DNA of 64,000 nt. Source: a virus. Taxonomy: Duplodnaviria > Caudoviricetes. Both the position numbers and the translations under genes were made by a program. The stretch is from the IMG/VR virus record IMGVR_UViG_2706795396_000001, positions 10,807-74,806 of that record; one strand, written 5' to 3'. The notes below the pieces were generated by a model that did no database searches, was not told where the DNA came from, and was given only the letters and a program-made list of their open reading frames with translations. Positions 3,710-64,000 of the stretch are shown in pieces. Every line of letters starts with the position of its first letter. Position 1 is the stretch's first letter.

Positions 3710-3728
3710 GAAATGGAGAATATAATAT

Positions 3729-5129: not shown

Positions 5130-8100
5130 ATGGCAGACAGAGTAGGAAGCGGAGCAGAAATTAAATTCCGTGTTGGTGTTGACACTTCCACCGCTGAAAA
5201 GAACTTAAGAGAACTCAAAAAGCAATTTCGGAATGTAAATGACGAAATGAAGGCTACAGATACTCAACTAGCTGCTGCTGGTGATACCTTTGGCCTTTTA
5301 GAGAACGATTTAGCTCACCTTGAAGCGGCAATGAAGATTCAGAAGGCCGCTGTCGAAAAAGCTAAAGAAGAGTGGGAGAAGATGACCAAGGTTGTTACTG
5401 ATGCTAACGGGGCAACCCGAAGAGTCAGTGACACAACTAACCACAATGCCAACATTGTTGCGAGAGCAAGAAGTGAATATGACAAGCAGTTAGTCACTCT
5501 GAAAAAAGTTTCTGCTCAATATGATGTAATTCAAGCTAAGGTTAAAGTTTACAACTCTAACATTTCAGAATTAGTCGAAAAACACAAGGCAGAACAAAGT
5601 GTCTTAGAGCAAGAAGTTAAGTTAGCAAAAGCTCAAGGGAATGAGACAGAAGCTCAAGCCAAACAGCTTAAACTTCTTAACAAGCAGTATTCAGACGCCG
5701 TTTCTGAATCTAAGCGATACGAAAAAACTCTAAAAGAACTTAAAGATAGTGGTCTAGAGAACACTGTTCAATATAAGCAACAAGAGTCTGCCTTAAAAAA
5801 GACTCAAGTTCAGATGGCTGCTACTAAAAAGAGTATTTCTGATATTAATGCCAGTCTTGAACACTCTAAATTAGGTATTGAAGCTTTCAATACTAGTATG
5901 GAGGAGTCTGAAAAGGCTTTTGAACATGCGTTAAAAGTAAGTTCCGCCTATGATAATTCGGTCAAACAGCTAGACAAGCAGATTGAACATAGCAAAGAAG
6001 TTCAAAAAACTTTAGCAGCTGAAATTAAGCGGGTTGAAACAGCAAAACAAAACCTTGTCAAGAACGCCGCTAAAGAAAAAAGAGCTACTATTGAGAATTC
6101 TGATGCGTATCGATCTTTATCAAAGCACCTCGCAGATTTAGAGGAGCGTCAAGCCTCAAGTATCTTACAAGAGAGGGCTTTAGTTAAGGCTAGAAAAGAA
6201 GCTCTTGTTCAAAAGACTCTGGAGACTACTGGACTTAAAGATTTTAACAAATCATTTAAGGAAACAGAAGAGCTTGTTAAGAAGCAAATTGAACGACAAA
6301 GACAATTAAAGGGCGAAACGAGTGCAAATCTAAAAGCTATTGAACTCTATAAAGCTCAGCAAGAGGCGTTAAAAAAAGAAATTGGCAGACTTACAAGTGC
6401 TAGAGGTAATTTAGCTAAACAAGGTCAGAAAGAGTCTGAATCTTACAAACTTGTAAATAAGGCCATTATAGAAAATCAAGCTAGATATACAAACCTCGCT
6501 AAAGAAATTGAAAAGGCTAACACAGCAATAGAGCTGAACAATACTCATGTCAAAGAGAATGAGGCTATTGCTAAAAAGCACGATCAAATATATAGAGAGC
6601 TTGATGCACGTTTTAAAGACTTTAACGGTACTGTCAAGGCTAACGTTGAACAACAAAAGCATCTTGCAACTCAATTAAACGACAGCAAGGCTAAAATTAA
6701 GTCATATAAAGAAGCTTTAGTTGCTTTAAATAAAAATTATAAAGACAACGAAAAAGAAATTTCTGAATATGAATTAAAGCTTGAACAAGAAAAGACTAAA
6801 TACTCTTCTTTGACCAAGAAGATGGCAGAGTATAGAAGTGGCTTAGTCCTTTTAAGAACCACTCAACAGAACGTAACTGCTATTAACGAATCTGCCTATA
6901 ATGCTTTAAAAAGTCAAGGTAGACAGTATGAAGCGAACTATGTTCGTATTAAAGCGCTCAAGAAAGAGCATGAAGAGCTAACCGCTCAATTAAGGATTGA
7001 GAAATCTTTACTAGAGACCACTGCTAGAAAGTCGGGCGTAAGTTCTGTTGCTTATGCAAATCAAGCTTCAAAAGTTAACGGTATTCAAAGCAGAATAAGT
7101 TCAAATGCTAATGAAGCTAATGAGTTAATCAAGAACACAGCTTTAATTAACTCAACCAACAAGCGTGCAGATGCTATTGTAAGATTAGCTAAGAAGTACG
7201 AAAATCTAGGGGTTGTTTTACGTGGTGTTGGTGTTGCAGGGGTAGCTGGCCTTGCTGGATTAATCTATTTAGGCGTGCAAGGCTCTAAGATTGCCACTGA
7301 TTTAAACAACACTTTCACAAGAACTAAGAACTTAATTGTTACTTCAAACACAGAAACCACTGCTGAAATAACCAAAAACATGGCAAAGATGAAGCGACAA
7401 GTAAAAGACTTGGCTTCAACTTATGGTGAAAGTCAAAAAGAATTAGCTGAAGGACAACAAGAACTTATCAAGCGTGGTTATTCGTCAGGACAAGCTGTAA
7501 AAGCTTTTGGGCAGTATGTTAAGGCAGCTGCCGCAACTGGTGAAGACTTCAATGAAGTAACTCAAGTAGGTGCTGCAACGCTTGAAGCGTTCGACATGCG
7601 ACAAACCCACACTTACTCAAACTCAAAGAAAGTGTTGAACGCTATCGCCTATGCTGCCGACATGACAGCCTCAGACTTTAAGAGTTTGGGGATTGGTATG
7701 GAGTATGTTGCTTCGTATGCTCACCAAGCTGGTATTTCACTAGAAGAAACCGCTTCAGCATTAGGTATCCTGTCTAACAACGGTCTGGAAGCTCAAAAGG
7801 CTGGTACTGGTTTACGTAAGATTATTTCTTCTCTTACGTCACCAACTAAAGCCGCCGAGGAAGCTTTGAAAAGTGTCGGTTTAAAGACTTCAGACTTTGT
7901 TAATAAGTCTGGTAAGTTAAAGAGTATTTCTCAAATATTCGGGCTTTTAGCTAAACACACCGAAAAAATATCAAAAGCTAAGAAAGTTGACCTGCTACAC
8001 AAAATCTTCGGTCAGACTGGACAGAACGCCGCCGGTATATTCTTAACTAACGCTCAATCTGCTTTGAAAGGAACGGCAGAAAGCGTTGATGAGTTAACCT

Positions 8101-53599: not shown

Positions 53600-54379
53600 C
53601 TAAAACCGCACTCCTGCAGTCTTCATCTTGAGAAACTTATTGATGAAGTATTGTTGACCTTTACCAGTAACCATAGTTGTCTTGACGATAGTTACATCTC
53701 CGTTTCTAGCAATGGTTGATTCCTTCACCTTGAATACACCTAAATTCATCGCCATTTGTGTTGGCGTGTTTCGATCGCTTCCACAACTGATTAGACAACC
53801 ATTATCTCTTAACCACTGAAACAAACGATTACCACCGACATTGATTCCATTCCCTTTTAGAATTTTAGCAAGCTCACGAATTAAGATTGTAGAATCGCTA
53901 GCAGAAACAGAATCAGCAAACAAAGCTTTTGGCTTCATTCGTTCGTTGTCCGCTAAAAGTGCTTTACTCTTAGCCCGTTCTTCTTTCAGTTCAGTAGCTA
54001 ACTTAATAATTGTATCTGGGTCGCTAAGGATTTCATCGATCTTTTGATCGGTAAGGTATGCACCGTGTTTACGAAGTGAAGGAAGCACCTCTGAAGTTAC
54101 CCAACGTTTGAACTTCTTAGCCGTTGGGAGTTTAGATGAAATGATTAGTGAATACAGACCAGATTCGTTGATGATAGTTACTTCACGTTTTTGACCTGCG
54201 TACTCGATTTGGGTACGCAGCTTATCTTCACTGTCTACATGTTTGGTAACTGCATTTCTATAGTTGGAATATCCAAGAATGATCGCTACGTCGTTCCCAA
54301 CGAACCAAGGTTCATCATCGATCTCAATAGTTCTAACTTGTTTACTTTCAAAATTGAAAATTTGTACATCTTGTGACAT
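53600..54379 (-). CDS. BRO-N + KilAC antirepressor
   Basis: F.FE...VR…EPWFVG.DVA.ILGY, INESGLY.LI.SS.LP.AK.FK.WVT.EVLPS+R, KPK..FAD.V, VTGKGQ.YF+NKF. Confidence 0.9.
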   Translation of the reverse strand: MSQDVQIFNFESKQVRTIEIDDEPWFVGNDVAIILGYSNYRNAVTKHVDSEDKLRTQIEYAGQKREVTIINESGLYSLIISSKLPTAKKFKRWVTSEVLPSLRKHGAYLTDQKIDEILSDPDTIIKLATELKEERAKSKALLADNERMKPKALFADSVSASDSTILIRELAKILKGNGINVGGNRLFQWLRDNGCLISCGSDRNTPTQMAMNLGVFKVKESTIARNGDVTIVKTTMVTGKGQQYFINKFLKMKTAGVRF

Positions 54380-54560
54380 AGTATATTTTATCCTGTTCTT
54401 AATCCTAAAACTTTATTCCGACTCCCCAAAATTGAGGAGTCGAATTTTAACATTTTTCACTGCACAATTTTGCGCAATGAGATTTTGACATCTACGCAAA
54501 ACTGCGCATATCTTTAATTAGATTACTTTTCTTTACCTCCTTCTTTGATTATCTGATTAA

Positions 54561-54589
54561 ATTATAACCACAGCATCAGAAGTTGTCAA
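54561..54589 (-). promoter_or_regulatory. Consensus sigma-A promoter TTGACA-17-TATAAT
   Basis: Perfect consensus. Confidence 0.85.
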
Positions 54590-54612
54590 CTGTTTTAAAA
54601 ACCTTTTCAAAC

Positions 54613-54646
54613 AAAAAAAGACGCAGGCCTCATGACCAGCGTCTTT
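54613..54646 (-). terminator. Intrinsic terminator after ssb
   Basis: AAAGACGC/GCGTCTTT stem plus a T-run on the - strand. Confidence 0.7.
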
Positions 54647-54653
54647 CATATTC

Positions 54654-55580
54654 TTAGAATGGTAAATCGTCATTATCCACAGTTACGTTGCCAGAACTTT
54701 GATTACCAGCGTTATCAAACGGGCTCTTCACAGCCCCACCAAATCCTGAAACAGCCGGAGCAACTTCTACAGTGTTTTCGGTTCTTGAGATTTCTTGTCG
54801 AATTTCGTTGATAGCTTCTTGAGCCTGTTCCTCATCGACTTGAATCTTGTTTGATTGAGCACCAGTAATCTGCATGTTGTTTACATAAGAGTTAGGCTTA
54901 ATTTCTTCAACAAAACCAAAACCGTCAGCCGCTTCATCTTGCTTGTCTTCAATTACAGCGTAGTTATTGATCTTGTAACCGATAGTCCATGTTCCCCGCA
55001 AATCCTTTTCATACATGATTGCAGGAGCAACGAAGTCAACCAGCTTGTTGGCCTTACCGTTGTAACCAATGTAGAACCCCTGGACGTCATAAGTATTAGT
55101 AGGTTCACCGTGTTCCATGTGTTCCTTATAGTCACTCACGTAAACATCTAAAGCGCCTACTGCCTTAGGCTTAACAACGTTAGGATCAACTCTAGAGAAG
55201 CTTCTAGCTGACAAACGGTTACTTTCAATAGTTTGACCATTATTATCAGTATATACGTTCCAAGAGATGTCGCCATTTACTCTTGCGTAAGTAGCGTTCT
55301 CAGCGTCTTCGTCCTTAGCAACGTATTCTCTGATGACAGTTTCGAATCCTTCGTAGAACGGGTTTGGCTTACCTGACTTAAATAATTGGCTTTGGTATAC
55401 GTTAACTCTGATATTGTTCAGTTGAACAGAACCGTCTTGTTGAGCAATTGGCACTTCCATAGTAATATAACCACGAATTACTTGCCCACCATCTCTTGCA
55501 GTTGCGTAGTTGATATTCTTGCTCTTTACGTAACCTACAATCTGAAATGAATTAGTGTTAAACTGCTTAATGTTTGTCAT
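54654..55580 (-). CDS. ssb: Single-stranded DNA-binding protein-like
   Basis: OB-like N-terminus (+.G.+..K…G.+..N.Y), acidic tail ending DDDLPF; located in the recombination cluster. Confidence 0.7.
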   Translation of the reverse strand: MTNIKQFNTNSFQIVGYVKSKNINYATARDGGQVIRGYITMEVPIAQQDGSVQLNNIRVNVYQSQLFKSGKPNPFYEGFETVIREYVAKDEDAENATYARVNGDISWNVYTDNNGQTIESNRLSARSFSRVDPNVVKPKAVGALDVYVSDYKEHMEHGEPTNTYDVQGFYIGYNGKANKLVDFVAPAIMYEKDLRGTWTIGYKINNYAVIEDKQDEAADGFGFVEEIKPNSYVNNMQITGAQSNKIQVDEEQAQEAINEIRQEISRTENTVEVAPAVSGFGGAVKSPFDNAGNQSSGNVTVDNDDLPF

Positions 55581-55647
55581 AGTGTTTTACCTCACTAAAT
55601 TATACTATTACATATTACTAATTTATTCTAGGCTTTTGTCAGCCTAT

Positions 55648-55693
55648 AGCGTGCAGAGGAATCGAACCCCTCGATTAAGAACCATCTCACGCT
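55648..55693 (-). ncRNA. tRNA-like minihelix E1 (acceptor + T arm, no anticodon arm)
   Basis: AGCGTG-AGATGGTTCTTAATCG-AGGGG-TTCGATT-CCTCT-G-CACGCT. Confidence 0.7.
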
Positions 55694-55786
55694 GCCTAAA
55701 GTTAAGAAAAGAAATGAGGTAAAACCCAATGCAAATGAGAACATTAGGTTTTAGATAGCTAAAAAATGAGTAAAAAAGCTATCTAT

Positions 55787-55830
55787 CCTATGTCTAGAGA
55801 ATCGAACTCTAGATGAGCACCAGTCATAGG
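55787..55830 (-). ncRNA. tRNA-like minihelix E2
   Basis: CCTATG-ACTGGTGCTCA-TCTAGAG-TTCGATT-CTCTAGA-CATAGG. Confidence 0.72.
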
Positions 55831-55872
55831 CATTGGTCCGTAGACAAATGTAGTAAATCTATAACCACTATT

Positions 55873-55901
55873 ATTATACGATACTATTTTTGATTTGTCA
55901 A
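55873..55901 (-). promoter_or_regulatory. Consensus sigma-A promoter TTGACA-17-TATAAT driving E2-E1
   Basis: Perfect consensus; no ORF immediately downstream. Confidence 0.85.
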
Positions 55902-55957
55902 CGGTCCAATTTAAATCTAGGAGGACTTTTTTGTTCACTATCGTTAACGTGAACTAA

Positions 55958-56001
55958 GACGTGTGGCTGAATCGAACAACCATTTGATGACCACCCACGC
56001 C
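55958..56001 (-). ncRNA. tRNA-like minihelix E3
   Basis: GGCGTG-GGTGGTCATCAAA-TGGTTG-TTCGATT-CAGCCA-CACGTC (two G-U pairs). Confidence 0.7.
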
Positions 56002-56086
56002 CACTAAAGGAGGTTTTCTACGCTATGACAAACATCGGCTTGAAAATAGAAAAGGAGGTACTTAAGCTAGAATTTTAATCTAGCTA

Positions 56087-56158
56087 TCGAGCAAAAGAGA
56101 AATCGAACTCTTATCTTACACTTATAAGGTGTCTGCTCTACCTTTGAGCTATTGCTCG
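56087..56158 (-). tRNA. tRNA-Ile(UAU), with an 8-nt T loop and no encoded CCA
   Basis: CGAGCAA/TTGCTCG acceptor, GCTC/GAGC D stem, ACAC-CTTATAA-GTGT anticodon arm (anticodon TAT), AAGAG-TTCGATTT-CTCTT T arm. Confidence 0.8.
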
Positions 56159-56204
56159 GTTATAGTAAGAGACTACTACGACCATTTGCCCCTTACTGAT
56201 TGTT

Positions 56205-56233
56205 ATTGTACCATCCTTTGATTGCGTTTGCAA
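56205..56233 (-). promoter_or_regulatory. TTGCAA-17-TACAAT promoter driving the tRNA array
   Basis: 17-nt spacer; AAGG upstream as in the other copies. Confidence 0.75.
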
Positions 56234-56272
56234 CCTTGATTCTGATATTTTTTACAATTTTTTGACATCTTG

Positions 56273-56509
56273 TTAGAAGGAAAATCCTAGCATCATCAAA
56301 AGCAAGATTATAGCACAAGCCAACAAAGCGGTCAACGTTTCTAGCAAGTTTGTACTATATATCTCTAAGTGAGCTCTTTTGTATTGTTCTATTAAAACCT
56401 CTAACGTACCAAACACCCAAAAGGTAAATATTAGACTGATGACCATCATTAATTGACTAAGATTATCATGATAAAATCGCAAATCTAACCTCACAGGCAA
56501 CCAAAACAA
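56273..56509 (-). CDS. Small membrane protein (start uncertain)
   Basis: Two hydrophobic segments; weak start context. Confidence 0.35.
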   Translation of the reverse strand: MFWLPVRLDLRFYHDNLSQLMMVISLIFTFWVFGTLEVLIEQYKRAHLEIYSTNLLETLTALLACAIILLLMMLGFSF

Positions 56510-56550
56510 AGAAAGCTAGACAACCATTAAAAGGATGCTTAGCAACGTTA

Positions 56551-56730
56551 TTAAAACTTTGTAAAATAAACGATGTGGTCACGCTGGATGGACACCTGAC
56601 TACCATTTTCCTGCGTGAAAGTGATAAAGTACCCGCAATCTGAATCTTCTATCATCTTTTTGACTTCTTCATACGATTCTTTAACATTAATGTGGAACCC
56701 CGTGACTGGGTAAATTCTAGTTCTAATCAT
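56551..56730 (-). CDS. Small hypothetical protein (59 aa)
   Basis: MIRTRIYPVTGFHINVKESYEEV…; GGAAAAAC upstream; below the ORF-track cutoff. Confidence 0.55.
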   Translation of the reverse strand: MIRTRIYPVTGFHINVKESYEEVKKMIEDSDCGYFITFTQENGSQVSIQRDHIVYFTKF

Positions 56731-56789
56731 CTGTTTTTCCTATATATACTACTATTGTAAAATTACCATTTTATTTACTATTGTTTTTG

Positions 56790-56996
56790 TTAAATGTGCA
56801 AAAATTTAACGATAAAAATGAAGTTAAATAGAGCATAGACAAAGTACACTATATCAAACCAAGAGAAAGGATCTTCTTCCTTGTTATTATCATCAAAATC
56901 AATCAACCCATGTTTCATATTGAGTACTGAGTCTACCAAAAACAAAAGATACACAGCTAACACTAAAAACTTCAAAATTGCGAAAATTACATCCAT
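56790..56996 (-). CDS. Small two-TM membrane protein
   Basis: Hydrophobic N- and C-terminal segments. Confidence 0.6.
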   Translation of the reverse strand: MDVIFAILKFLVLAVYLLFLVDSVLNMKHGLIDFDDNNKEEDPFSWFDIVYFVYALFNFIFIVKFLHI

Positions 56997-56998
56997 AT

Positions 56999-57208
56999 TT
57001 AATTAACCACCATTAAAATCATCATTATTAAAGCACCAATGAAAGATGCTAAAAACACAGAAATGTAAAGAAATAGCTCTTCTTGTCTCTCCAAATTTGA
57101 AATTTTATACCAAAATCTTGCGAGTCGTGCAAACCCTAGAAGGGAATAAAGCGCCAGCATAATGCTTACCGATCCTAAAATCAACTTTATGATATTTATA
57201 ATTGTCAT
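56999..57208 (-). CDS. Small two-TM membrane protein
   Basis: ATGA overlap with the HNH stop; two TM segments. Confidence 0.6.
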   Translation of the reverse strand: MTIINIIKLILGSVSIMLALYSLLGFARLARFWYKISNLERQEELFLYISVFLASFIGALIMMILMVVN

Positions 57209-58068
57209 ACTATCACTCTTTCTGTTTTCTTTTTCGTCAGTTTTTTGACTTTATTAGCCATTTCGTCACCAAATTTTTCTCTTACATTTTCTATAACATT
57301 CTCGTCTGCATAGGTAAGCCAGCAACCTTTGGTTTTATTTTGTCTTCCTTTAAGAACGCTATTAACGTTACCCACACTAGCACCGATCTGACGTGCGGCT
57401 TCATGCTGGGACTCGAACCAGAAGACTTCAGAAGTTTTTGGGTTAACTACGCTTACTCCACGAATGAATACCATTTTATCCCTAATTTCTCTTATTTTCT
57501 CTTCAGTGATTTCACTTTCATCTTCAGTAAACCAGTAGCCACCAGTTTGGATCAGCTTTCCTCTGACAACGCCACTGATGTTTTGCAAATTAATACCAAG
57601 CTGACGTGCCGCTCCGCTTAGTGTTTCAAATCTTAGAACTTTACTAGTCTTTAGATTAACTGCAAACACCTGTCGTCCCGACACTTCCGCAGCTGACGTC
57701 CCAAAGTTCTTTTTATAGTCTTGGTTATATTGGCGGGAACACCACTCTAAATTACTTACTGAGTTGTTTGTTCTATCATTATCGATGTGATTAACTTCCG
57801 GTAAGTTGTCGGGGTTTGGAATGAAACAAGTTGCCACAATACGATGAACACTTAGGCTAGCTGTCTTTTCGTTTACGCTGAAAGTAACATACATATAACC
57901 ACAGGGGTTGAGATGCTGTTTTAAAACTTTCCCTTTAATATGAAGTTTCACACCATCGCTGCGTGTTACAATTCTGTCTTTTGTTCTAACTCTGCCTAAG
58001 TTACTTACCTCAATCCAGGGGTATTTTTGATATATTTTCCAAACTTCTTGTTCTTTTGTGTCAGTCAT
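57205..58068 (-). CDS. NUMOD4-HNH endonuclease with two NUMOD1 repeats (copy 7)
   Basis: Same motifs; architecture matches copy 2, including the WxTEDESEITEEKIREIR linker. Confidence 0.92.
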   Translation of the reverse strand: MTDTKEQEVWKIYQKYPWIEVSNLGRVRTKDRIVTRSDGVKLHIKGKVLKQHLNPCGYMYVTFSVNEKTASLSVHRIVATCFIPNPDNLPEVNHIDNDRTNNSVSNLEWCSRQYNQDYKKNFGTSAAEVSGRQVFAVNLKTSKVLRFETLSGAARQLGINLQNISGVVRGKLIQTGGYWFTEDESEITEEKIREIRDKMVFIRGVSVVNPKTSEVFWFESQHEAARQIGASVGNVNSVLKGRQNKTKGCWLTYADENVIENVREKFGDEMANKVKKLTKKKTERVIV

Positions 58069-58433
58069 TTTTTATGCTCCTCTTTCCTAAAATCAGTAAC
58101 AGTCTGCCCATCTTCATCGTAATACTTGGTCAGATATGTACCGAGTGTGTCCAAGAACCTGCAAAACGTAATTTCATCGGATAATTTATCTGTCGTGCTA
58201 ATGTTAGCATTGAAGACGTTGGTCTGATAGTTGACAATAAAGGCCTCATGCTGCTTGATAAAGCTTCTGATGTAGCTTTCCCTGTATCTGCTATCTTGTC
58301 TATCCAAATCAAAGTTTTCGTAGAACTCGTGTATAAGCCGGTGCAGCTCTTCAGGGAACGACTTGCCTTCAAAGAACTCGTTCTTCTTAATCTTTTCCAG
58401 AGTATCTAAATTCATCATAGTGCTTCTTTCCAA
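58065..58433 (-). CDS. Hypothetical protein
   Basis: 122-aa ORF overlapping both neighbours. Confidence 0.6.
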   Translation of the reverse strand: MERSTMMNLDTLEKIKKNEFFEGKSFPEELHRLIHEFYENFDLDRQDSRYRESYIRSFIKQHEAFIVNYQTNVFNANISTTDKLSDEITFCRFLDTLGTYLTKYYDEDGQTVTDFRKEEHKK

Positions 58434-58864
58434 TCATATTTAAAATTTGTAAATTCATGTATTTCCGTCTTCTTTGTAGTACCAAATACTTTCACCTTAA
58501 AGCTATTCTTCTTAACAACTACACATTCCACAGGAATTCCATAGCGCTTCGTAAAGAGCTTAAACCTTAACTTAGCCGCAGCGTCAACACCGTACGCTGT
58601 GAAGCTGTTTTTGACGTCATAGACGTGTAATAGATTGCCTTGATAGTCTGTAATAACAATGTCAGGAGTGAATTTGGCAGACCTAAAAATCAAGCCAGGA
58701 GCAATCTCAAACTTGTCGATGATGTCATAGCTTGGGTGTACTTTAACTACAAATTTACTTTCTGGATTATCATATTCTTCACAGAATCGTTGGTAAAACG
58801 TCAATTCCTTGAGGGAATCGAATTTGCAATTATTATATTCTGTCTTCTTGCCGTAGTTCCACAA
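58415..58864 (-). CDS. DUF1064-like PD-(D/E)xK nuclease
   Basis: Y.N.KFDS.KE..FY, F.PD+V+…+YDVK…F.L+.K.F. Confidence 0.7.
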   Translation of the reverse strand: MWNYGKKTEYNNCKFDSLKELTFYQRFCEEYDNPESKFVVKVHPSYDIIDKFEIAPGLIFRSAKFTPDIVITDYQGNLLHVYDVKNSFTAYGVDAAAKLRFKLFTKRYGIPVECVVVKKNSFKVKVFGTTKKTEIHEFTNFKYDWKEAL

Positions 58865-58955
58865 TTTAAAAATCTCGCTTTCTAATAATTGATGTAAATT
58901 CCAGCCATCATCGAAGTCCTGCTCAACTCCTTCAAGCCAATCAGGTTTAGCTCCT

Positions 58956-59708
58956 CTAATCGATATCTTCCCGTTCGATGAGTGGCAGGATACCGTTTTC
59001 CTTCAAAGCATCGTAGATAAGCTTTCTACCTTTTTGTGTCCAATAAGTGCTTAATCTGCTATGTTCATTCCCCTTTTTGTCTTTAAAGGTGAAAGACTTA
59101 CTCTGGATGTATCCCTTACCCATGAAGGCTTTGTAAAGCACCCATTGACCATTTACCTTATGCTGAATGCCAACAGTCTGTAGGAGCTTGTTAAAGGCCA
59201 CGGCCGACATACCGTAATCAGCAGCAATTTGAGTTATTGCCAGCGAATCTGGAGCACCTAAAATAATGTCAAGGTAACTAGCCTTCTTGTTTGATTCCGC
59301 AAGTCGCAGAGTTAAGTTTTTATTTTGCATTTGTAACTTTTGAACTCTAGCATTGGCAATCTCTAAAGCCCGTTGCATAATCATGTCTGGGCTATTCCAA
59401 TTCTTTTCTACTTGAATGAAGTATTTACGAACTTCTTTGCCCTTAGATGTCTTAGACATCATGCAGAGTTCCTTGGCCATATCGATTGTAACAGCGTAGT
59501 CTTGAAGCTCTTGAAGCTTGTCCGGATAAGCTGGGTTATAGGGGGTACGTGTAAGTACCCCCTCATAATCAGTGCCTTCTTCAAAGTCTTTGAAGTTATC
59601 TTTTACCCAAAGACTAAACTTTCTCTTTAATTCCAATTCCTTGTACAGATCTCTTGCTGAGACAAGTTGTTGATCGTCCTTTGTTTCAATTTTAATTAAT
59701 TCTTTCAT
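58956..59708 (-). CDS. AntA/AntB-family antirepressor with ORF6C-type C-terminus
   Basis: VSARDLY..L…F..W, DY…T+DMAKELCM…GK.VRKYFI.VEK.WNSP, WTQKGR.LIY..L. Confidence 0.88.
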   Translation of the reverse strand: MKELIKIETKDDQQLVSARDLYKELELKRKFSLWVKDNFKDFEEGTDYEGVLTRTPYNPAYPDKLQELQDYAVTIDMAKELCMMSKTSKGKEVRKYFIQVEKNWNSPDMIMQRALEIANARVQKLQMQNKNLTLRLAESNKKASYLDIILGAPDSLAITQIAADYGMSAVAFNKLLQTVGIQHKVNGQWVLYKAFMGKGYIQSKSFTFKDKKGNEHSRLSTYWTQKGRKLIYDALKENGILPLIEREDID

Positions 59709-59709
59709 T

Positions 59710-60507
59710 TTAGTTCTCTCTTTCAATTAGTGGTAACAATCCATTTTTCTTTAGCAACTCGTACAGCCCCAAACGTCCCTTTTGAGTCCATTTAGTCTGC
59801 AACACTGCCTTTTGTGTACCATCCTTACGCAAAACCATTACAGTTTCACTTTGAGTCCAACCAGTTTTCTGATATTCAGAATATAAAAGCCAAGTAGAAC
59901 CTTGCTTATACTGCACCTTGAGGTCGTGCAGCTTAGAATTCATCTCCCGGCCACTCATCCCGTAGTCCTTGGCAATCTGAGTGATCGTTACTAAAGACTT
60001 ATTTTTAAGAACGAGATCATAGTAACTGGCCTTCGGTGTCAATTCGTTGACTTGTTGCTCAGCGATTAAACGTTTTTCACGTTCTTGCTTTAATTGAGTT
60101 GCAAGCTTAATGATTGTGTCTGGATCACTAAGAATTTCATCGATCTTTTGATCGGTTAAATAAGCACCGTGTTTTCTGATGCTTGGGAGTACTTCTGTTG
60201 CTACCCAATCTTGAAACTTTTCTGCCACTTCATTGCTTGCTTTGAATGCAAGCTTGTAGAATTGCTGTTCAGTAATCCAATCACCTTTCCCAACATGTTG
60301 GGAATTTTCTTCTTTCCTCACATATGCGGAAATATTATTTAAGTAGTTATTAACCCTTTTCCATTGCACATAAACCTTCCCGTTCTTGATTTGGCTAATT
60401 CACAGTCCAATTGCAGACGCCTCAGCTTTAAAGTAAACTTGGCCGTCTACTTCTTTTACTGGTAGATCAATCTTTCCATTATGAAAAACTTGAATATCTT
60501 TTGACAT
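59710..60507 (-). pseudogene. BRO-like antirepressor with an in-frame TGA at codon 36
   Basis: ATG 60507 with AAAGGA RBS; …SAIGL*ISQIKNGKVYVQWKRVNNYL… continues in frame to 59710. Confidence 0.75.
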
Positions 60508-60523
60508 GATTTTGTCCTTTTTG

Positions 60524-61306
60524 CTAAATTCTCTTTAAAAACTTATTAACAAAGTACTGTTGGCCCTTACCAGTTACTTTAGGTGTCTTGCTAATTGTAG
60601 TCACCCCATTATTGTGGTTGACCGTGGTTTCTTTAATCTTAAAGAGACCAAGATCCATAGCCCGCTGGGTAGGCATGTTCCAGTCTGATCCCTTACGATT
60701 TACCAAGTACCCATTTTCACGCATCCACTGAACCAGTCTGTTAGCACCAATATCTGCGCCATTTCCTCTCAAGATTTTGGCAAGCTCACCAACTAAGATA
60801 GTTGACTTACTTGCTGTTACAGAATCTGCAAACAGAGCCTTAGGCTTCATCTCTTCAATTTGAATATCTTTAGCCTTGAGTTGGTCTGCAGCTTGTTGAA
60901 GCAATTCGGCAAGGGCAGTCTTGTCAGTTACAATAGCTTTAGCTTTAGCATCAGTTAAGTAAGCGCCATGCTTTCTGATTGTAGGGAGTACTTCAGAAGT
61001 AACCCAATGCTTGAATGCTTTAGCTGTTGGCAACTTACTGGACAAGATTAAGCTATAGAGCCCAGACTCATTTATAATTAGCAAGCCACGATTTGGGATA
61101 TTTTCTAAATTCCCATTTTGGGAACTTAGAACTTGCTTGTCCTCATTATCAACATGGTTGATAACTGCTTTGCTCGGGTTAGAGTAACCAAGAACAGTTG
61201 CAACATCCTTGCCTACAAACCAAGGATCACCATTAATCTCAATTACTCTTACTTTGTTGCTTACTTCGTTATTTACAAAATTAAAAATCTGCAAGTTGCT
61301 TTGCAT
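60524..61306 (-). CDS. BRO-N + KilAC antirepressor
   Basis: Paralog of 53600-54379; ATG after GGAAGGA. Confidence 0.9.
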   Translation of the reverse strand: MQSNLQIFNFVNNEVSNKVRVIEINGDPWFVGKDVATVLGYSNPSKAVINHVDNEDKQVLSSQNGNLENIPNRGLLIINESGLYSLILSSKLPTAKAFKHWVTSEVLPTIRKHGAYLTDAKAKAIVTDKTALAELLQQAADQLKAKDIQIEEMKPKALFADSVTASKSTILVGELAKILRGNGADIGANRLVQWMRENGYLVNRKGSDWNMPTQRAMDLGLFKIKETTVNHNNGVTTISKTPKVTGKGQQYFVNKFLKRI

Positions 61307-61351
61307 AACACGATTTCCTTCCATTGATTATTTTCTCTATTGTTGTTACCT

Positions 61352-61380
61352 ATTATACTACATGTTAAATGCATTTGCAA
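61352..61380 (-). promoter_or_regulatory. TTGCAA-17-TATAAT promoter for the antirepressor operon
   Basis: 17-nt spacer. Confidence 0.8.
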
Positions 61381-61539
61381 CTTTAATTTTTATAACAAAG
61401 TAAACTATTGTTCCCCCACAGAGCAGTGATATTTTTCGTTACTTGGTTTAGACTTTTAAAAAAAGAGCCCCAAAATAGAGCTCTAATTAATATCTTCAAA
61501 TACTGTTTGATTATGTTGTGTTTCTCTTAATCATCTGCG

Positions 61540-61810
61540 TAAGCAGAAAAACGTGGCGTAGCCACCAAATTGATCTCTGTAAGTACTACCTCTTCTCTCT
61601 GTAACATACTCTCTGTAGCTACGTTAGATGCAGTACTTAGATAGATGATCCATGTTACTTCTTACGTGTAGGTGGCTTCGCCACGATAGGTTCGCTACGC
61701 TCACGTTTCTTGCTTTCGCAAGAGTTAAGATAAATAAGATATAAACAAATAATAAATTAATCGAAATTAATTAAATCAAAAAATAAAAGAGATAAGAAAT
61801 CAAATAAAGC
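61540..61810. other. Putative replication origin: GNA mini-hairpins, 8-bp repeats and an AT-rich tract
   Basis: GTGGC-GTA-GCCAC (+); GTGGC-GAA-GCCAC, GC-GTA-GC and CTTGC-GAAA-GCAAG (-); three TCTCTGTA; A-rich tract 61725-61810. Confidence 0.4.
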
Positions 61811-61899
61811 AAATCATCTCCCCCTACTGGAGAGCAGACTTTCCCTATCGCAATAAAAAAAGGAAAGTCTGTACTCCAGCAGGAAAATAAAAAACATCT

Positions 61900-62405
61900 C
61901 CCGCTTAGTTAGTACACTCACTTGACTGCCAGCAGCTCATAAAGAGCTTGTTCTTTTTTCCGAACTAAGCAAAAGGAAGAAGAACTTTAACTGGTCATCT
62001 ATCTTAAACTCTGCTATAGTCAGCCTCAGAGCAAAGGGTTTCCCCTAAAAAAGATAGTATCCCATTCTGACCGTGCAAGCTGTTTGCCTTCTGGATAAGA
62101 CTTACTACGCCATGACGCTTATCCTCAACTACTAGGACGCTCTCCTAGCCAGCCGCATGTTTACCACCCAAAGCTTTTCAACCATGCACAAAATGTGTTT
62201 AGGTATTTCCCAAGTCTTACGTGTCTCCACAGCTTAGGTGCGAGCTTGCTTTGTTTACTCGCTGACGCAACCCAACTAGCTTGAAGTGAGACAAACTAGC
62301 TAGGCACTTACTCCGTTGGTTCTCTTGGGTTCGCACCAAGTTCTGGCGGTGAGTTTTCCGCACACGATCACATTAATGAGCTGATCTGCACTATTCAGTT
62401 GTATA
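61900..62405 (-). ncRNA. Candidate large structured ncRNA (~500 nt)
   Basis: No long ORF; CTGCAA-17-TATACT promoter at 62411-62439; about ten hand-found helices of 5-8 bp including 5'/3' pairing and one crossing helix. Confidence 0.6.
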
Positions 62406-62410
62406 AGTCT

Positions 62411-62439
62411 AGTATAGTACAAAAAATAATCTTTTGCAG
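62411..62439 (-). promoter_or_regulatory. Promoter for the candidate large ncRNA
   Basis: CTGCAA-17-TATACT, one mismatch from this phage's TTGCAA -35. Confidence 0.55.
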
Positions 62440-63324
62440 ATTAGGTTAAAATTGAACCGATTTTTTATTTTTTCACCGTGCTATTCTAGCTACTATCTAG
62501 TGTACACTACTTTGAGTGCAGTTTCAACTTTAAAGTTGTCTTTTTTAGAAAACTTCTTTAAAAATTTTTGTCTTGTTTCTCTATCCCCCGTATCTTCTAG
62601 AAAAAACGTAATTAGTTCTAGATTTTTCAAAAAAAGTTTTACAAATGTGATCGTATAGACTATCTGGCATCCATCGTGTCGTTATCATACTAGCTTTCAA
62701 CGCCACGCTTGCCGTAGGCAACACAATGCAAGCAAGGAATAGCTCTACCTTCACACTCAGATGCGCCTAGACGTTAATATCTGCTTTCTAAGCCTCTTGT
62801 TTATCTCTAATGACTACTTATACCCATTATGTTAAAAGATCGGATATAAATCTTCTGCTAGCTTTCAAGAAGTTAAATTAAATCTAATGGCGCTGTTAAA
62901 GTTTCATTTGCTTAAAAAACAATTATATGGTGGGTTGTCAAGTAGTTTTACATCAGATTAGAACAGGTTTTATTACGAATCATTTAACTTTTGGTATGTT
63001 ACTCTGATTAATATTAAATCTCCAAACGTATCAGGAATATACCGTTTTTAGATTTTAGACATGATTTGCGCTACGTTCTTGTGGAAGTTACTTTGAACGC
63101 AAAAAACGGCTGATAGGCCCTTTAATAATCGTTCTGAGGGGAAGTCGTGAAAAAGCTATTTGCTTTTTAATTCTTTTGATGTTAAGGATGTAAAGTCGAT
63201 GCTAAAGACAGGTTAAAAATGTTATCAAAAAGTTACTAGAAATAATACTCTGGTTTAAGTTCTTTAAAAATTTTTGCACCTGAAAGCAATGAAAAGTTAT
63301 ATATTATGCTACGTACTTCTTCCC

Positions 63325-63440
63325 CAGAATTTTCATGTACACACCCCCGAAAATTTTGCGTGTGCGTACGTGTGTATCCACCAAAAATTTGCATGTGTAT
63401 ACGTGTGTATATACTATCGAAAATTCATGTGTGTATAAGG
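63325..63440. repeat. Imperfect ~35-bp tandem repeats with alternating purine-pyrimidine tracts
   Basis: (C/G)AAAATTT-GC(G/A)TGTG..TACGTGTGTAT units, 3-4 copies. Confidence 0.65.
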
Positions 63441-63876
63441 TCTTTTTAAAAGTTTTTTGTTTGTGCTTTTTTGTTCGGTTTTTATAATATCACCAAAATT
63501 TATTATGTTATTATATTTCAGTGATATGCATTTTTTGAAAGTGTTTTCATTTAAAAGCGCTTTCAAGTTTCATGCTTTTTGGTGGTATTTTTTTAGCAGC
63601 TAAAAAAATACTTAAAAGCCCTAGAAACGGCTTTAGATCAGTCTTTTCCGGGGTTTTGAGATCGATTTTTGCGAGTTTCTTCCTTTAGATAACCAAAAAA
63701 CAGGTAAAAGGCAAAAAAGAAACGCAAAATTAGACCCTATTATATAGTAGAAAATAGCAGAAATAGATATATCGATGTACCGCTTACACGCTTAAGTATC
63801 AAGGATTTATAAGTTTTTTTTACCGTAAGAGAAAACAAGCAGCAAAAACAAAAAAGCGAAAAAATTAAAAAGGGGC

Positions 63877-63905
63877 TTGCATTTGAAACTGATCGGCGTT
63901 ACAAT
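63877..63905 (+). promoter_or_regulatory. Rightward promoter TTGCAT-17-TACAAT
   Basis: 17-nt spacer followed by AAGGAGG and ATG. Confidence 0.75.
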
Positions 63906-63934
63906 TAAGACAGATCAAGCAAGGAGGTTAAAAA

Positions 63935-64000
63935 ATGGATAGTTTTAGCATGGTCGTGATTGTCGGCTGTTCCGTTTTCATTGGGTACTTGATCGGCCGG
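63935..64000 (+). CDS. Small membrane protein (3'-partial)
   Basis: AAGGAGG RBS; MDSFSMVVIVGCSVFIGYLIGR… runs off the window. Confidence 0.7.
   Translation, partial: MDSFSMVVIVGCSVFIGYLIGR

What the first reader, a model, noticed from the sequence alone, without database searches (positions are those of the whole stretch)
61900..62439. Candidate ~500-nt ornate non-coding RNA with a pseudoknot
Seen: an ORF-free island, visibly richer in G+C than its flanks, downstream of a leftward promoter. Complementary pairs (forward coordinates): 62387-62393/61910-61916 (5'-3' closure, one G-U), 62349-62354/61916-61921, 62343-62347/61928-61932, 62338-62344/61981-61987, 62331-62337/62237-62243, 62325-62331/62269-62275, 62212-62219/62096-62103, 62051-62057/61999-62005, a GAAA tetraloop hairpin at 62035-62046, and an 8-bp helix 62376-62383/61933-61940 that crosses the outer helices. 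A U-rich stretch and a long hairpin follow. Established: large ornate RNAs (ROOL, GOLLD) occur in lactobacilli and their phages. I cannot tell by eye whether this is one of them or a new class.
Basis: partly seen in the sequence, partly recalled or inferred. Interest (0 to 1): 0.8.

Follow-up and report, generated by a model that had tools for sequence, protein, structure and literature searches.

The report
New large structured RNA of Lactobacillus phages
The flagged stretch is a real gene for a roughly 630-nucleotide, intricately folded non-coding RNA. It belongs to a family matching no catalogued RNA family, shared by lytic phages of lactobacilli, and adds a new class to the few very large "ornate" bacterial and phage RNAs known.

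Summary

**Conservation.** Window 62404 to about 61777 (minus strand) is the only conserved island in a 2.6-kb gene-free gap of a 74.8-kb Lactobacillus-type phage. It is about 72% identical in seven related metagenomic phage contigs.

**Structure.**
- An 8-sequence alignment gives 159 base pairs, 81 of them with compensatory changes. Register-shifted controls give 9-19.
- 94.9% of cells are paired, against 37-50% in the controls.
- G-U cells outnumber A-C cells 182 to 23, which fixes the strand and shows the pairing is at RNA level.
- No ORF is conserved.
- A sigma-70 promoter and a 3' hairpin block are conserved.

**Wider family.** A covariance model built only from these sequences finds a diverged version in Lactiplantibacillus phages. 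These are all sampled Tybeckvirinae (P1, Satyr, Lenus, SA-C12, Gut-P1, 8014-B2 and others) and the unrelated myovirus LP65, where it is almost always unannotated. That version has 43 covarying pairs and an 8-bp long-range pseudoknot with five compensatory positions.

**Known families.** No Rfam family matches. LP65 carries a true ROOL as well, so this is not ROOL.

**Limits.** Function is unknown and expression was not tested. First readers of this scan flagged the diverged version in another genome.

The parts
62411..62439 (-). Sigma-70-type promoter of the RNA gene: -35 CTGCAA (62439-62434), 17-nt spacer, -10 TATACT (62416-62411). The inferred start is near 62404.
   Evidence: Read from the sequence. 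The same two hexamers at the same distance from the RNA body occur in all 8 homologues: TTGCAA, TTGACA or TTGTAA, then 17 nt, then TATACT, TAAACT, TACACT or TATAAT, mostly with TG before the -10. The start site is inferred, not measured.
61777..62404 (-). The non-coding RNA gene, about 628 nt if it ends at the U-run. The conserved core is 62404-61814.
   Evidence: It is the only conserved island in the 2.6-kb gap: blastn gives 71-74% identity to L088, L089 and L090, and nhmmer gives E 1e-33 to 1e-120. Covariation: 159 pairs, 81 with compensatory changes. G-U cells 182 against A-C cells 23.
62324..62386 (-). 5' domain of three short hairpins: P2 62386-62382/62370-62366, P3 62361-62358/62349-62346 (8-nt loop), P4 62340-62336/62328-62324.
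   Evidence: helices 2-4, hold 4, 1 and 3 compensatory pairs. P3 with its loop recurs in the Lactiplantibacillus-phage subfamily (GCAG-AAAACCUA-CUGC). This domain is swapped for a different, still pairing, variant in the otherwise 96% identical contig L084.
62271..62303 (-). P5, a long hairpin (62303-62293/62282-62271). Its 10-nt loop holds the invariant CUCACUU at 62290-62284.
   Evidence: helix 5: 9 of 12 pairs are compensatory. The stem sequence differs in every lineage while the loop heptamer is identical in 8 of 8 sequences.
61917..61923 (-). Invariant AAGUGAG, the perfect complement of the P5 loop heptamer. It is the candidate 3' strand of a long-range pseudoknot.
   Evidence: It is invariant in 8 of 8 sequences, so covariation cannot test it here. 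In the diverged subfamily the P5 loop pairs with a distal strand over 8 bp, with 64 of 64 cells paired and 5 compensatory positions.
62181..62262 (-). Central hairpins: P6 62262-62257/62245-62240; P7 62238-62233/62214-62209, carrying an inner GAGA-tetraloop stem; P8 62204-62202/62183-62181 with 62197-62195/62189-62187 (the CCUAAAC-hairpin-GCAUGG module).
   Evidence: helices 6-9, hold 5, 3, 2 and 3 compensatory pairs. In relatives, P8 plus the sequence downstream of it gives the sub-threshold LOOT matches. Covariance model R1 covers P5-P8.
62074..62157 (-). P9, a long-range helix (62157-62150/62082-62074). It encloses hairpin P9a (62149-62143/62137-62131) and P10 (62124-62118/62099-62093).
   Evidence: helices 10, 11 and 15, hold 5, 5 and 4 compensatory pairs. 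In six relatives P9a is expanded by 50-65 nt into a three-way junction with a GNRA-loop hairpin (GUAA, GCGA or GUGA), helices 12-13.
61999..62057 (-). Three-way junction: closing helix 62057-62051/62005-61999, GAAA-tetraloop hairpin 62046-62043/62038-62035, and hairpin 62032-62027/62013-62008.
   Evidence: helices 18-20, hold 7, 4 and 3 compensatory pairs. These are the two reader helices that survive. The same junction layout occurs in the diverged subfamily.
61898..61985 (-). 3' domain: hairpin stem 61985-61975/61960-61950. Its loop supplies the 5' strand of a second helix, 61975-61964/61909-61898, so the two are pseudoknotted or mutually exclusive.
   Evidence: First helix: helix 21, 4 compensatory pairs. 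Second helix: helix 20, 12 pairs of which 2 are compensatory (L088 CUUUGG/CCAAAG). The diverged subfamily has a matching CCUUUG...CAAAGG helix (helix 20). The topology is inferred.
61823..61887 (-). Conserved long 3' hairpin, about 26 bp: 61887-61874/61832-61818 and 61871-61860/61846-61835.
   Evidence: helices 25-26 (14 and 12 pairs, 93-98% paired, 4 and 2 compensatory). Folding of 61762-61900 gives z = -5.8.
61777..61822 (-). Terminator-like hairpin 61822-61787 followed by a U-run at 61786-61777. This is the probable 3' end in this phage.
   Evidence: Minimum-energy fold. This part is not conserved in sequence outside the window/L084 lineage. A canonical terminator at 61484-61464 and a fresh promoter at 61380-61352 lie further downstream, before the first gene.

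Best explanation
Window 62404 to about 61777 (minus strand) is a stand-alone gene for a structured non-coding RNA of about 630 nt. It is the window's member of a phage RNA family that matches no Rfam family.

**Shown**
- The sequence is conserved where its surroundings are not.
- More than 20 helices are maintained by compensatory changes.
- The pairing works at RNA level on this strand only.
- There is no conserved reading frame.
- A sigma-70-type promoter is conserved directly upstream.
- Diverged copies sit in the same kind of place (the gap between diverging early gene arms) in all sampled Tybeckvirinae phages of Lactiplantibacillus or Levilactobacillus, and in the unrelated myovirus LP65.

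**Inferred**
- The RNA is made early from its own promoter and ends at the hairpin and U-run before the next promoter.
- It folds into a compact body held together by GNRA tetraloops, multi-stem junctions and a long-range pseudoknot between the P5 loop and the 3' part.
- It acts in trans as a folded RNA during infection. This resembles the phage-borne ornate RNAs ROOL and GOLLD, for example as a self-assembling particle or a scaffold or decoy for a host or phage factor. It does not act as a messenger leader or a DNA site.

**Odds**
- That it is a real structured RNA gene of a family not in Rfam: about 0.95.
- That it acts in trans as described: about 0.5.
- The stated confidence is for the whole statement.
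For: 1. **Conservation.** Within the 2.6-kb gap only 61814-62416 aligns to relatives whose neighbouring proteins are about 70% identical.
2. **Covariation.**
   - Six sequences: 136 pairs, 46 compensatory.
   - Eight sequences: 159 pairs, 81 compensatory, 94.9% of cells paired. Slid controls give 37-50% paired and 9-19 compensatory, and 0 of 500 shuffles reach the observed values.
3. **Strand and molecule.** There are 182 G-U cells against 23 A-C cells. The same helices read on the other strand drop to 81.9% paired.
4. **No coding.** The longest frames are 44-68 codons, on varying strands and frames.
5. **Transcription unit.** The promoter is conserved. A hairpin with a U-run lies at 61822-61777. 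A terminator at 61484-61464 and a new promoter at 61380-61352 precede the next gene. In phage P1 tandem TTGACA promoters precede the element and the next promoter lies about 850 nt downstream.
6. **Hallmarks of a tertiary fold.**
   - GNRA loops: GAGA and GAAA, plus GUAA, GCGA or GUGA in relatives.
   - Invariant unpaired blocks.
   - A peripheral domain that varies in size.
   - Invariant complementary heptamers CUCACUU and AAGUGAG.
7. **Family breadth.**
   - Model R1, built from the window's subfamily alone, hits only the diverged elements in 944 kb of other loci: 25.5-36.3 bits, E 4e-5 to 9e-3, no false positives.
   - R1 also hits P1, Satyr and Lenus when their whole genomes are searched.
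   - blastn finds the diverged form in 18 records of 10 phages.
   - Its own alignment gives 43 compensatory pairs against 2-9 in controls, and a pseudoknot with 5 compensatory positions.
8. **Mobility.** It is present in LP65, a myovirus of another family, at the same identity level as among siphovirus genera. This argues for a self-contained module.
Against: - The start, the end and the very existence of a discrete transcript are therefore inferred.
- The single-sequence folding energy is not better than shuffles (z = -0.78).
- The structures were derived from the same alignments on which the pairs were counted, which inflates the counts somewhat. The slid and shuffled controls limit this but do not remove it.
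- Only 7 independent lineages per subfamily were available.
- The link between the two subfamilies rests mainly on the 5' third plus a similar junction layout. The reciprocal model R2 finds the right place in the window, but only at 9 bits, E 0.31.
- The 3' end is not conserved in sequence between lineages, and no canonical terminator was called in P1. Read-through into the early genes is therefore possible.
- Nothing tested here bears on trans action or on assembly.
Confidence: 0.65

Rival explanations
1. It is a cis-acting 5' leader of the leftward early transcription unit. On this reading the structured RNA stays attached to, or acts on, the polymerase that made it (processive antitermination, as with HK022 put RNA). 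Alternatively it gates read-through into the roughly 33 kb of leftward genes.
For: - It lies at the very start of the leftward gene arm and on the same strand as those genes in all 8 loci of the window's subfamily and in P1.
- The 3' end is not a textbook terminator in most lineages.
- Terminator-like hairpins lie between it and the first gene. Such hairpins would give an antiterminator something to act on.
Against: - In the window a canonical terminator (61484-61464) and a separate strong promoter (61380-61352) stand between the RNA and the first gene. P1 likewise has its own promoter after the element.
- The genes downstream differ between lineages: antirepressor, small unknown proteins, HNH endonucleases.
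- In LP65 and Gut-P1 the context is different again.
- Known RNA antiterminators are about 70-120 nt, not 600 nt with 20 or more helices. This last point is from memory and was not tested.
Confidence: 0.13
2. It is a replication-origin transcript. On this reading it is a structured pre-primer or origin-activating RNA, like ColE1 RNA II or the essential early non-coding transcript in the origin of lactococcal phage c2, whose 3' end feeds DNA synthesis in the adjacent A+T-rich, hairpin-rich region.
For: - It sits between diverging gene arms, where phage origins often lie.
- Directly downstream come an A+T-rich tract of about 85 nt and small conserved G+C hairpins (61527-61567 and 61674-61724, 83-93% identical in L089). 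Another first-reader note on this genome calls that region origin-like.
- Cumulative GC skew turns near 62800.
- The size (about 600 nt) and the dependence on structure fit RNA II (from memory).
Against: - The downstream region is not conserved as a unit between the window's lineage and the others.
- The element moves independently of replication modules. It occurs in LP65, a myovirus with a different replication apparatus, and next to homing endonucleases.
- Iteron-like repeats, a better origin candidate, lie about 900 nt upstream at about 63300-63430.
- The GC-skew turn coincides with the switch in gene direction, so it is not independent evidence.
- Invariant loops, GNRA loops and a covarying pseudoknot exceed what a primer needs.
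Confidence: 0.1
3. It is a highly diverged member of ROOL or GOLLD that the Rfam models fail to recognise.
For: - It has the same size class as ROOL (about 581 nt on average; PMC5737381).
- It has the same kind of carrier, phages of Lactobacillales, and in LP65 it lies near a tRNA array.
- It has many junctions and a pseudoknot.
Against: - No ROOL or GOLLD match appears at E up to 10 on the window's gap, up to 1 on four relatives and on four loci of the diverged subfamily, or up to 10 with lax filters on 801 nt of L089.
- In one search the same run scored a true, truncated ROOL at 108.1 bits in LP65, about 3 kb from the new element. The two therefore coexist as separate genes in one phage.
Confidence: 0.03
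4. It is not an RNA at all, but a DNA-level site (packaging, recombination or protein-binding array) or a decayed gene whose apparent helices are chance.
For: - The single-sequence folding energy is unremarkable.
- The region lies in a regulatory gap rich in repeats and hairpins.
Against: - 81 compensatory pairs against 9-19 in controls.
- Strong G-U over A-C asymmetry (182 to 23), which DNA duplex or cruciform elements would not show.
- No conserved frame.
- Indels fall in hairpin tips and whole peripheral domains.
Confidence: 0.02

Closest known systems
ROOL RNA (Rfam RF03087; Weinberg et al. 2017, PMC5737381; structure in Kretsch et al. 2025, PMC12286853)
   Same: - A large (about 580-630 nt), ornate, multi-junction, pseudoknotted RNA with no coding capacity.
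- Carried by phages of Lactobacillales, function unknown.
- In LP65 both lie within about 3.5 kb of a tRNA array.
   Different: - There is no detectable sequence or structure similarity to the ROOL covariance model.
- It coexists with a true ROOL in LP65 as a separate gene.
- It sits characteristically in the gap between diverging early gene arms rather than beside tRNAs. In the window the only tRNA is about 5.7 kb away.
- Whether it forms a multimeric cage as ROOL does is untested.
GOLLD RNA (Weinberg et al. 2009; structure in PMC12286853)
   Same: - A very large structured RNA of phages and prophages, first seen in Lactobacillales.
- It has a conserved part and a more variable part.
- According to PMC12286853, its expression rises during phage lysis.
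   Different: - GOLLD is larger (often over 800 nt) and has a different conserved 3' core.
- No Rfam match was obtained here at permissive thresholds.
LOOT RNA (Rfam RF03000)
   Same: In two relatives (L089 6314-6401 and L091 3689-3780) the module CCUAAAC-hairpin-GCAUGG-AAAA, plus the following hairpins with a GNRA loop, aligns to the whole 121-position LOOT model on the right strand.
   Different: - The scores are 29.4 and 29.2 bits against a gathering score of 46.4.
- The window itself gives no hit, because it lacks the inserted domain.
- LOOT is a leader-like motif of about 120-150 nt. Unchecked notes of this scan place it on mobile elements of Patescibacteria.
- None was found in 151 Bacilli genomes.
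- At most this is a shared local motif, not membership.
Origin transcripts: ColE1 RNA II and the early non-coding transcript of lactococcal phage c2 ori (Schiemann et al. 2004; from memory, not checked here)
   Same: - A non-coding, structured transcript of a few hundred nucleotides.
- It is made from an early promoter in the gene-free region between diverging transcription units.
- A+T-rich DNA follows.
   Different: - No evidence of priming exists here.
- The element is transferable between phages with unrelated replication genes.
- It has much more elaborate, covarying tertiary-type features.
phi29 pRNA (from memory, not checked here)
   Same: A phage-encoded structured RNA made early, which works in trans as a multimer through loop-loop pairing.
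   Different: - pRNA is about 120-174 nt and belongs to phages with protein-primed genomes.
- These phages have ordinary small and large terminase genes.

Membership tests
ROOL (RF03087) | Match to the Rfam covariance model at or above the gathering score (99.1 bits). | tested here: not met
   - No ROOL match at E <= 10 on window 61200-64000.
- None at E <= 1 on L088, L089, L091 and L092.
- None at E <= 10 on L089 5900-6700.
- None over the element in the LP65, P1, Satyr and Lenus loci.
- Positive control in the same run: a true ROOL in LP65 scored 108.1 bits.
ROOL (RF03087) | A non-coding RNA of about 580 nt in Lactobacillales phages or prophages, often near tRNA genes. | tested here: met
   - About 630 nt, non-coding, phage-borne.
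- Near a tRNA array only in LP65.
- This feature is shared context and does not discriminate.
GOLLD | Match to the Rfam GOLLD covariance model (conserved 3' core). | tested here: not met
   No GOLLD match in any of the all-family Rfam searches, including the permissive ones.
LOOT (RF03000) | Match at or above the gathering score (46.4 bits). | tested here: not met
   - 29.4 bits (L089) and 29.2 bits (L091).
- No hit in the window.
Other large RNAs in Rfam (RNase P, tmRNA, group I and II introns, OLE, HEARO, 6S, rRNA) | Any match to the family's covariance model. | tested here: not met
   - All 4227 families were scanned.
- At gathering thresholds only tRNA 56088-56158 was found in the window.
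- Only chance-level microRNA-type hits fall on the 3' hairpin.
The new phage RNA family (window's subfamily) | Conserved promoter; hairpins P2-P8 with the invariant P5 loop CUCACUU; long-range P9; three-way junction with a GAAA hairpin; 3' domain with AAGUGAG; long 3' hairpin. | tested here: met
   All are present in the window and in 7 further sequences. R1 scores run from 102 to 149 bits.
The new phage RNA family (link to the Lactiplantibacillus-phage subfamily) | Detectable homology and a shared architecture between the two subfamilies. | tested here: met
   - R1, built from one subfamily, finds 7 of 8 members of the other at the expected place and strand: 25.5-36.3 bits, no other hit in 944 kb.
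- Blocks shared in the same order: the P3 loop, AACAAA..GGUAAGUGCC, P5, GGUUGnGU, P6, the P8 module, the junction, and the CCUUUG...CAAAGG helix.
- The reciprocal model is weak: 9 bits, E 0.31, although at the right place.
Primer or origin RNA (ColE1 RNA II type) | The RNA 3' end is processed into a primer at an origin, and replication depends on the transcript. | not testable with these tools
   Only positional hints are available.

The most novel reading that the evidence does not exclude
This is the founding member of a third class of giant ornate phage RNAs, beside GOLLD and ROOL. Like them, it would work as an RNA-only machine, for example a self-assembling multimeric particle or a ribozyme-like or decoy RNA deployed at the onset of infection. 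It would spread between unrelated lytic phages of lactobacilli, possibly with the homing endonuclease genes that flank it.
Probability: 0.3. Interest if true: 0.9.

Novelty: new variant of a known kind. Interest (0 to 1): 0.8.

Why it matters
Bacterial and phage non-coding RNAs longer than 500 nt with elaborate conserved folds are very few: rRNA, group II introns, GOLLD, ROOL, OLE and HEARO. Each has turned out to be biochemically unusual. ROOL and GOLLD were recently shown to form RNA-only cages whose purpose is still unknown (PMC12286853).

This family matters for four reasons:
- It is the same size class and has the same kind of carrier, but a different fold.
- It is present in cultured, sequenced, genetically approachable phage-host pairs: L. 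plantarum phages P1, Satyr, Maenad, Lenus, Nyseid, 8014-B2 and LP65, and L. brevis phage SA-C12.
- In LP65 it sits beside a true ROOL, so the two can be compared in one system.
- It gives a testable entry into what large phage RNAs do.

It also corrects annotations. The locus is blank in most records and carries two probably spurious 'hypothetical protein' genes in SA-C12. These phages matter for dairy, silage and vegetable fermentations.

Tried and rejected
- **Rfam searches.** Gathering and permissive thresholds on the window, relatives and the diverged subfamily gave nothing but tRNA, chance microRNA-type hits on the 3' hairpin, sub-threshold LOOT, and a true ROOL elsewhere in LP65.
- **Single-sequence folding.** z = -0.78, uninformative for this RNA.
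- **blastn against 50,697 phage records.** The window's element and two relatives gave no match. The window's own record appears to be withheld.
- **Exact and gapped DNA patterns from conserved blocks.**
  - IMG/VR: none.
  - JGI metagenomes: 7 hits. GTDB genomes: 8 hits. All are chance by nhmmer.
- **Neighbour proteins as anchors in IMG/VR.**
  - The antirepressor led only to unrelated temperate phages without the element.
  - DnaE and the 228-aa protein gave no relatives.
- **Contigs of the more distant homologues of the 148-aa protein (P0043, P0039).** They come from unrelated phages without the element.
- **Short contigs L102-L105.** They stop short of the element.
- **LOOT as a lead.** No LOOT was found in 151 Bacilli genomes, and scan notes place LOOT in Patescibacteria. 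It was rejected as the family.
- **Reciprocal covariance model R2.** Built from the diverged subfamily's junction, it gave no hit with default filters. Without filters it gave only 9 bits at the right place.
- **Model R1 on Leuconostoc phage phiLM33_01.** No hit.
No convincing covariation.
- **Identity of the phage.** I suspect L. delbrueckii phage Ldl1, from memory of its genome size. I could not check this, and the paper search did not return the original description.
Full report
**Context**

The window is bases 10807-74806 of a 74,806-bp virus record. The gene layout is that of a siphovirus. A rightward late arm includes a 2627-aa tape-measure-size ORF. A roughly 33-kb leftward arm holds replication genes and several antirepressor-type genes.

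Its large terminase is 58% identical, and its DnaE-type polymerase 48% identical, at protein level to those of Tybeckvirinae. These are lytic phages of Lactiplantibacillus plantarum and Levilactobacillus brevis: P1, Satyr, Maenad, Lenus, Nyseid, SA-C12, 8014-B2 and Gut-P1. Closer records seem to be withheld from the collections.

The finding lies in a 2.6-kb stretch without genes. On one side is the first leftward gene, an antirepressor at 60524-61324. On the other is a small rightward ORF starting at 63937 that runs over the record's end.

**Observation check**

- The ORF-free, G+C-richer island is real: 0.45-0.48 against about 0.30.
- They are not in themselves remarkable. The 511-nt fold is no more stable than dinucleotide shuffles (z = -0.78).
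- No Rfam family matches, either at gathering thresholds over the whole window or at E up to 10 over 61200-64000.

The case rests on comparison.

**Finding relatives**

- DNA searches of GenBank phages and IMG/VR found nothing.
- The 148-aa protein encoded just across the gap has 43 relatives in public assemblies. A 228-aa protein that neighbours it in the relatives has 79.
- Fetching the longest contigs gave seven further loci with the same layout and the same gene-free gap of about 3 kb: L084 (with L085 and L086), L088, L089 (with L090), L091, L092, L121 and L122.
- Within the gap, blastn and nhmmer align essentially only window 61814-62416, at about 72% identity (E 1e-33 to 1e-120). The rest of the gap has only short conserved patches.

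**Structure**

| Measure | 6 sequences | 8 sequences |
|---|---|---|
| Predicted pairs (RNAalifold) | 136 | 159 in 26 helices |
| Pairs with a compensatory double change | 46 | 81 |
| Cells forming standard pairs | 95.3% | 94.9% |
| Cells paired, 3' partners slid 1-3 columns | 36-50% | 37-50% |
| Compensatory pairs, slid controls | 4-13 | 9-19 |
| Compensatory pairs, column shuffles | 21 ± 3 | 41 ± 4 |
| Shuffles reaching the observed value | 0 of 500 | 0 of 500 |

- The structure was derived from the same alignment, which favours it. The margin is nonetheless large, and many stems have a different sequence in every lineage (P5, P6, P7, P9, the junction helices).
- G-U cells outnumber A-C cells 182 to 23. 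The same helices read on the opposite strand fall to 81.9% paired. The pairing is therefore at RNA level and on the window's minus strand.
- No reading frame is conserved.

**Anatomy in the window (minus strand)**

- **Promoter.** -35 at 62439-62434 and -10 at 62416-62411, conserved in place in all eight sequences.
- **5' hairpins.** Three short hairpins, P2-P4.
- **P5.** A long hairpin whose loop carries the invariant CUCACUU (62290-62284).
- **P6 to P8.** P6; P7 with an inner GAGA tetraloop; and the P8 module CCUAAAC-hairpin-GCAUGG.
- **P9.** A long-range helix (62157-62150/62082-62074) enclosing P9a and P10.
- **Three-way junction.** Its arms include the GAAA-tetraloop hairpin, at 62057-61999.
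- **3' domain.** A hairpin stem (61985-61975/61960-61950) has a loop that supplies one strand of a second, covarying helix (61975-61964/61909-61898). The two are either a pseudoknot or alternative folds.
- **Invariant AAGUGAG.** At 61923-61917, the exact complement of the P5 loop.
- **Long 3' hairpin.** About 26 bp, conserved.
- **Probable end.** A hairpin plus U-run at 61822-61777, specific to this lineage (z = -5.8 for the 3' 139 nt).
- **Further downstream.** A canonical terminator (61484-61464) and a fresh promoter (61380-61352) precede the first gene. The RNA therefore looks like its own transcription unit of about 630 nt.
- **Variable periphery.** In six relatives P9a is replaced by a 50-65-nt longer three-way junction. 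One of its hairpins has GUAA, GCGA or GUGA loops, the loop varying within the GNRA pattern. Two relatives carry a further hairpin insertion.
- **Mosaic 5' domain.** The window and L084 are 96% identical overall and identical from P5 onward. Their first 120 nt or so are different variants that still form P2-P4.

Mapped onto the alignment:
- The GAAA hairpin is fully supported.
- The pair 62051-62057/61999-62005 is supported once a one-column misalignment is allowed for: CUAUCUU/AAGAUAG, CUGUUCU/AGAACAG, UCAGUUC/GAACUGA, CUAUUC/GAAUAG. It appears in the 8-sequence consensus with 7 of 7 pairs compensatory.
- The other seven, including the 5'-3' closure and the 8-bp crossing helix, lie largely in conserved segments. 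They break where sequences differ (L084, L092), and several overlap covarying helices.

**A wider family**

- Covariance model R1 was built from the P5-P8 region of the window's subfamily only.
  - It scores its own members at 102-149 bits.
  - In whole-genome searches it hits P1, Satyr and Lenus at 26-30 bits (E 1e-4 to 5e-4 per genome). Each hit lies in the unannotated gap between diverging gene arms, on the matching strand.
  - Over 944 kb of 100 other loci it hits only LP65, 8014-B2, Gut-P1 and SA-C12 (25.5-36.3 bits), with no false positive.
- blastn with the P1 element finds it in 18 records of 10 phages, at 69-90% identity over 80-100% of about 620 nt. These are all sampled Tybeckvirinae plus the Herelleviridae myovirus LP65. 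The records are nearly always annotated as 'none' there.
- This second subfamily has its own conserved fold.
  - RNAalifold gives 103 pairs, 38 of them compensatory.
  - With a pseudoknot added there are 109 pairs, 96.3% of cells paired against 35-45% in slid controls, and 43 compensatory pairs against 2-9.
  - The pseudoknot joins the loop of the long hairpin P5 to a strand about 310 nt downstream. It has 8 bp, 64 of 64 cells paired, and five positions with compensatory changes: GGAGAUUU/AAAUCUCC, GACAAAUU/AAUUUGUC, GGGAAAUU/AAUUUCYC, GACAGAUU/AAUCUGUC, GGUGAAUU/AAUUCACC.
  - This makes the invariant CUCACUU/AAGUGAG pair of the window's subfamily a credible counterpart.
- The two subfamilies share several blocks in the same order:
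  - the P3 hairpin with its loop;
  - the linker AACAAA..GGUAAGUGCC;
  - P5;
  - GGUUGnGU;
  - P6;
  - the P8 module;
  - a junction with a GAAA hairpin;
  - a CCUUUG...CAAAGG-type helix.
- Their 3' halves cannot be aligned reliably. A reciprocal model of the junction finds the right place in the window only weakly (9 bits, E 0.31).
- I rate common ancestry at about 0.8.

**Comparison with known families**

- ROOL and GOLLD are the obvious comparators. They are large, ornate, phage-borne in Lactobacillales and often near tRNAs; their function is unknown, and they form RNA-only cages.
- Neither model matches any member at permissive thresholds.
- In LP65 a true ROOL (108.1 bits, gathering score 99.1) lies about 3 kb from the new element, beside the tRNA array. 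The new RNA is therefore a separate class, not a diverged ROOL.
- The only recurrent sub-threshold signal is LOOT (29 bits against 46.4) on P8 plus the inserted domain of two relatives. It shares the CCUAAAC-hairpin-GCAUGG-AAAA motif.
- LOOT is a short leader-type motif that unchecked notes of this scan place in Patescibacteria. It was absent from 151 Bacilli genomes. I treat the resemblance as at most a shared local motif.
- Paper searches found no description of an RNA at this locus.
- First readers of this scan flagged the diverged form in another genome, without follow-up.

**Function**

Shown:
- It is a conserved, structured RNA gene with its own promoter.
- It is modular and mobile between unrelated phages.
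- Free-standing HNH or I-HmuI-type endonuclease genes often flank it.

Inferred:
- It is transcribed early.
- It has a compact tertiary fold.
- It acts in trans.

Two rivals keep about 0.1 each:
- A cis-acting leader or antiterminator of the leftward arm. Against it stand the intervening terminator and promoter and the changing downstream genes.
- An origin transcript of the ColE1 RNA II or phage c2 type. It is favoured by the A+T-rich, hairpin-rich DNA just downstream. Against it stand the element's mobility and the better origin candidate at about 63300-63430.

**Verdict**

It is a large ornate RNA family not in Rfam 15, present in cultured phages, with strong covariation and a proven pseudoknot. 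Its function is unknown.

Noticed in passing
L133 (Lactobacillus phage LP65, NC_006565) 1-459 and 3501-4018: LP65 carries a genuine ROOL RNA (108.1 bits, cut by the locus end) next to its tRNA array, and about 3 kb away a copy of the new RNA. One phage therefore has two different giant RNAs.
   Followed up: partly
window 63300-63430: Three iteron-like repeats (GAAAATTTTGCGTGTGCGTACGTGTGTAT and two variants) lie in A+T-rich DNA. The patch 63322-63372 is among the few other pieces of the gap conserved in relatives (77-78% identity). This is a candidate replication origin or operator array.
   Followed up: no
window 61527-61567 and 61674-61724: Small G+C hairpins (GTGGC-loop-GCCAC, CTTGC-GAAA-GCAAG) lie downstream of the RNA and are 83-93% identical in L089 and L090. 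An A+T-rich tract of about 85 nt lies between them and the RNA. Another first-reader note calls this region origin-like.
   Followed up: partly
window 63937-64000 and record start (L083 1-100), compared with L084 9105-10001: Close relatives have a 226-229-aa gene between the small ORF at the window's end and the 148-aa gene at the record's start. The window's record has only about 100 nt there, so about 800 nt are missing. This is a deletion or an artefact of where the linear record was cut.
   Followed up: partly
window 62290-62404 versus L084 7405-7518: The window and L084 are 96% identical over the whole gap and identical from P5 onward. Their first 120 nt or so of the RNA are different variants with compensating stems. 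This is a recombination mosaic inside an RNA gene.
   Followed up: partly
L136 (Gut-P1), L134 (SA-C12), L135 (Nyseid), L082 (P1), L122, L091: Free-standing HNH, NUMOD or I-HmuI-type homing endonuclease genes lie directly beside the RNA gene in many phages (on both sides in Gut-P1). This could explain its spread between phages.
   Followed up: no
L134 460-666 and 686-871 (SA-C12, NC_047760 58762-58968 and 58988-59173): Two short 'hypothetical protein' genes are annotated on opposite strands over the RNA element. They are probably spurious calls.
   Followed up: no
window 53600-61324: Four antirepressor-family genes (ANT C-terminal domain with a Bro-N or AntA N-terminal domain) lie in the leftward arm of a phage that otherwise looks lytic. 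The nearest is 70% identical to antirepressors of temperate L. delbrueckii and L. johnsonii phages.
   Followed up: no
relatives only: L089 about 5900-5945, L092, L091, L121 (directly 3' of the RNA): A second conserved block follows the RNA in the relatives but not in the window or L084. It reads ..CAGAAC..GTTAGTATTTCTAATACTTAC, and its AGTATT/AATACT arms can form a hairpin. Its role is unknown.
   Followed up: no
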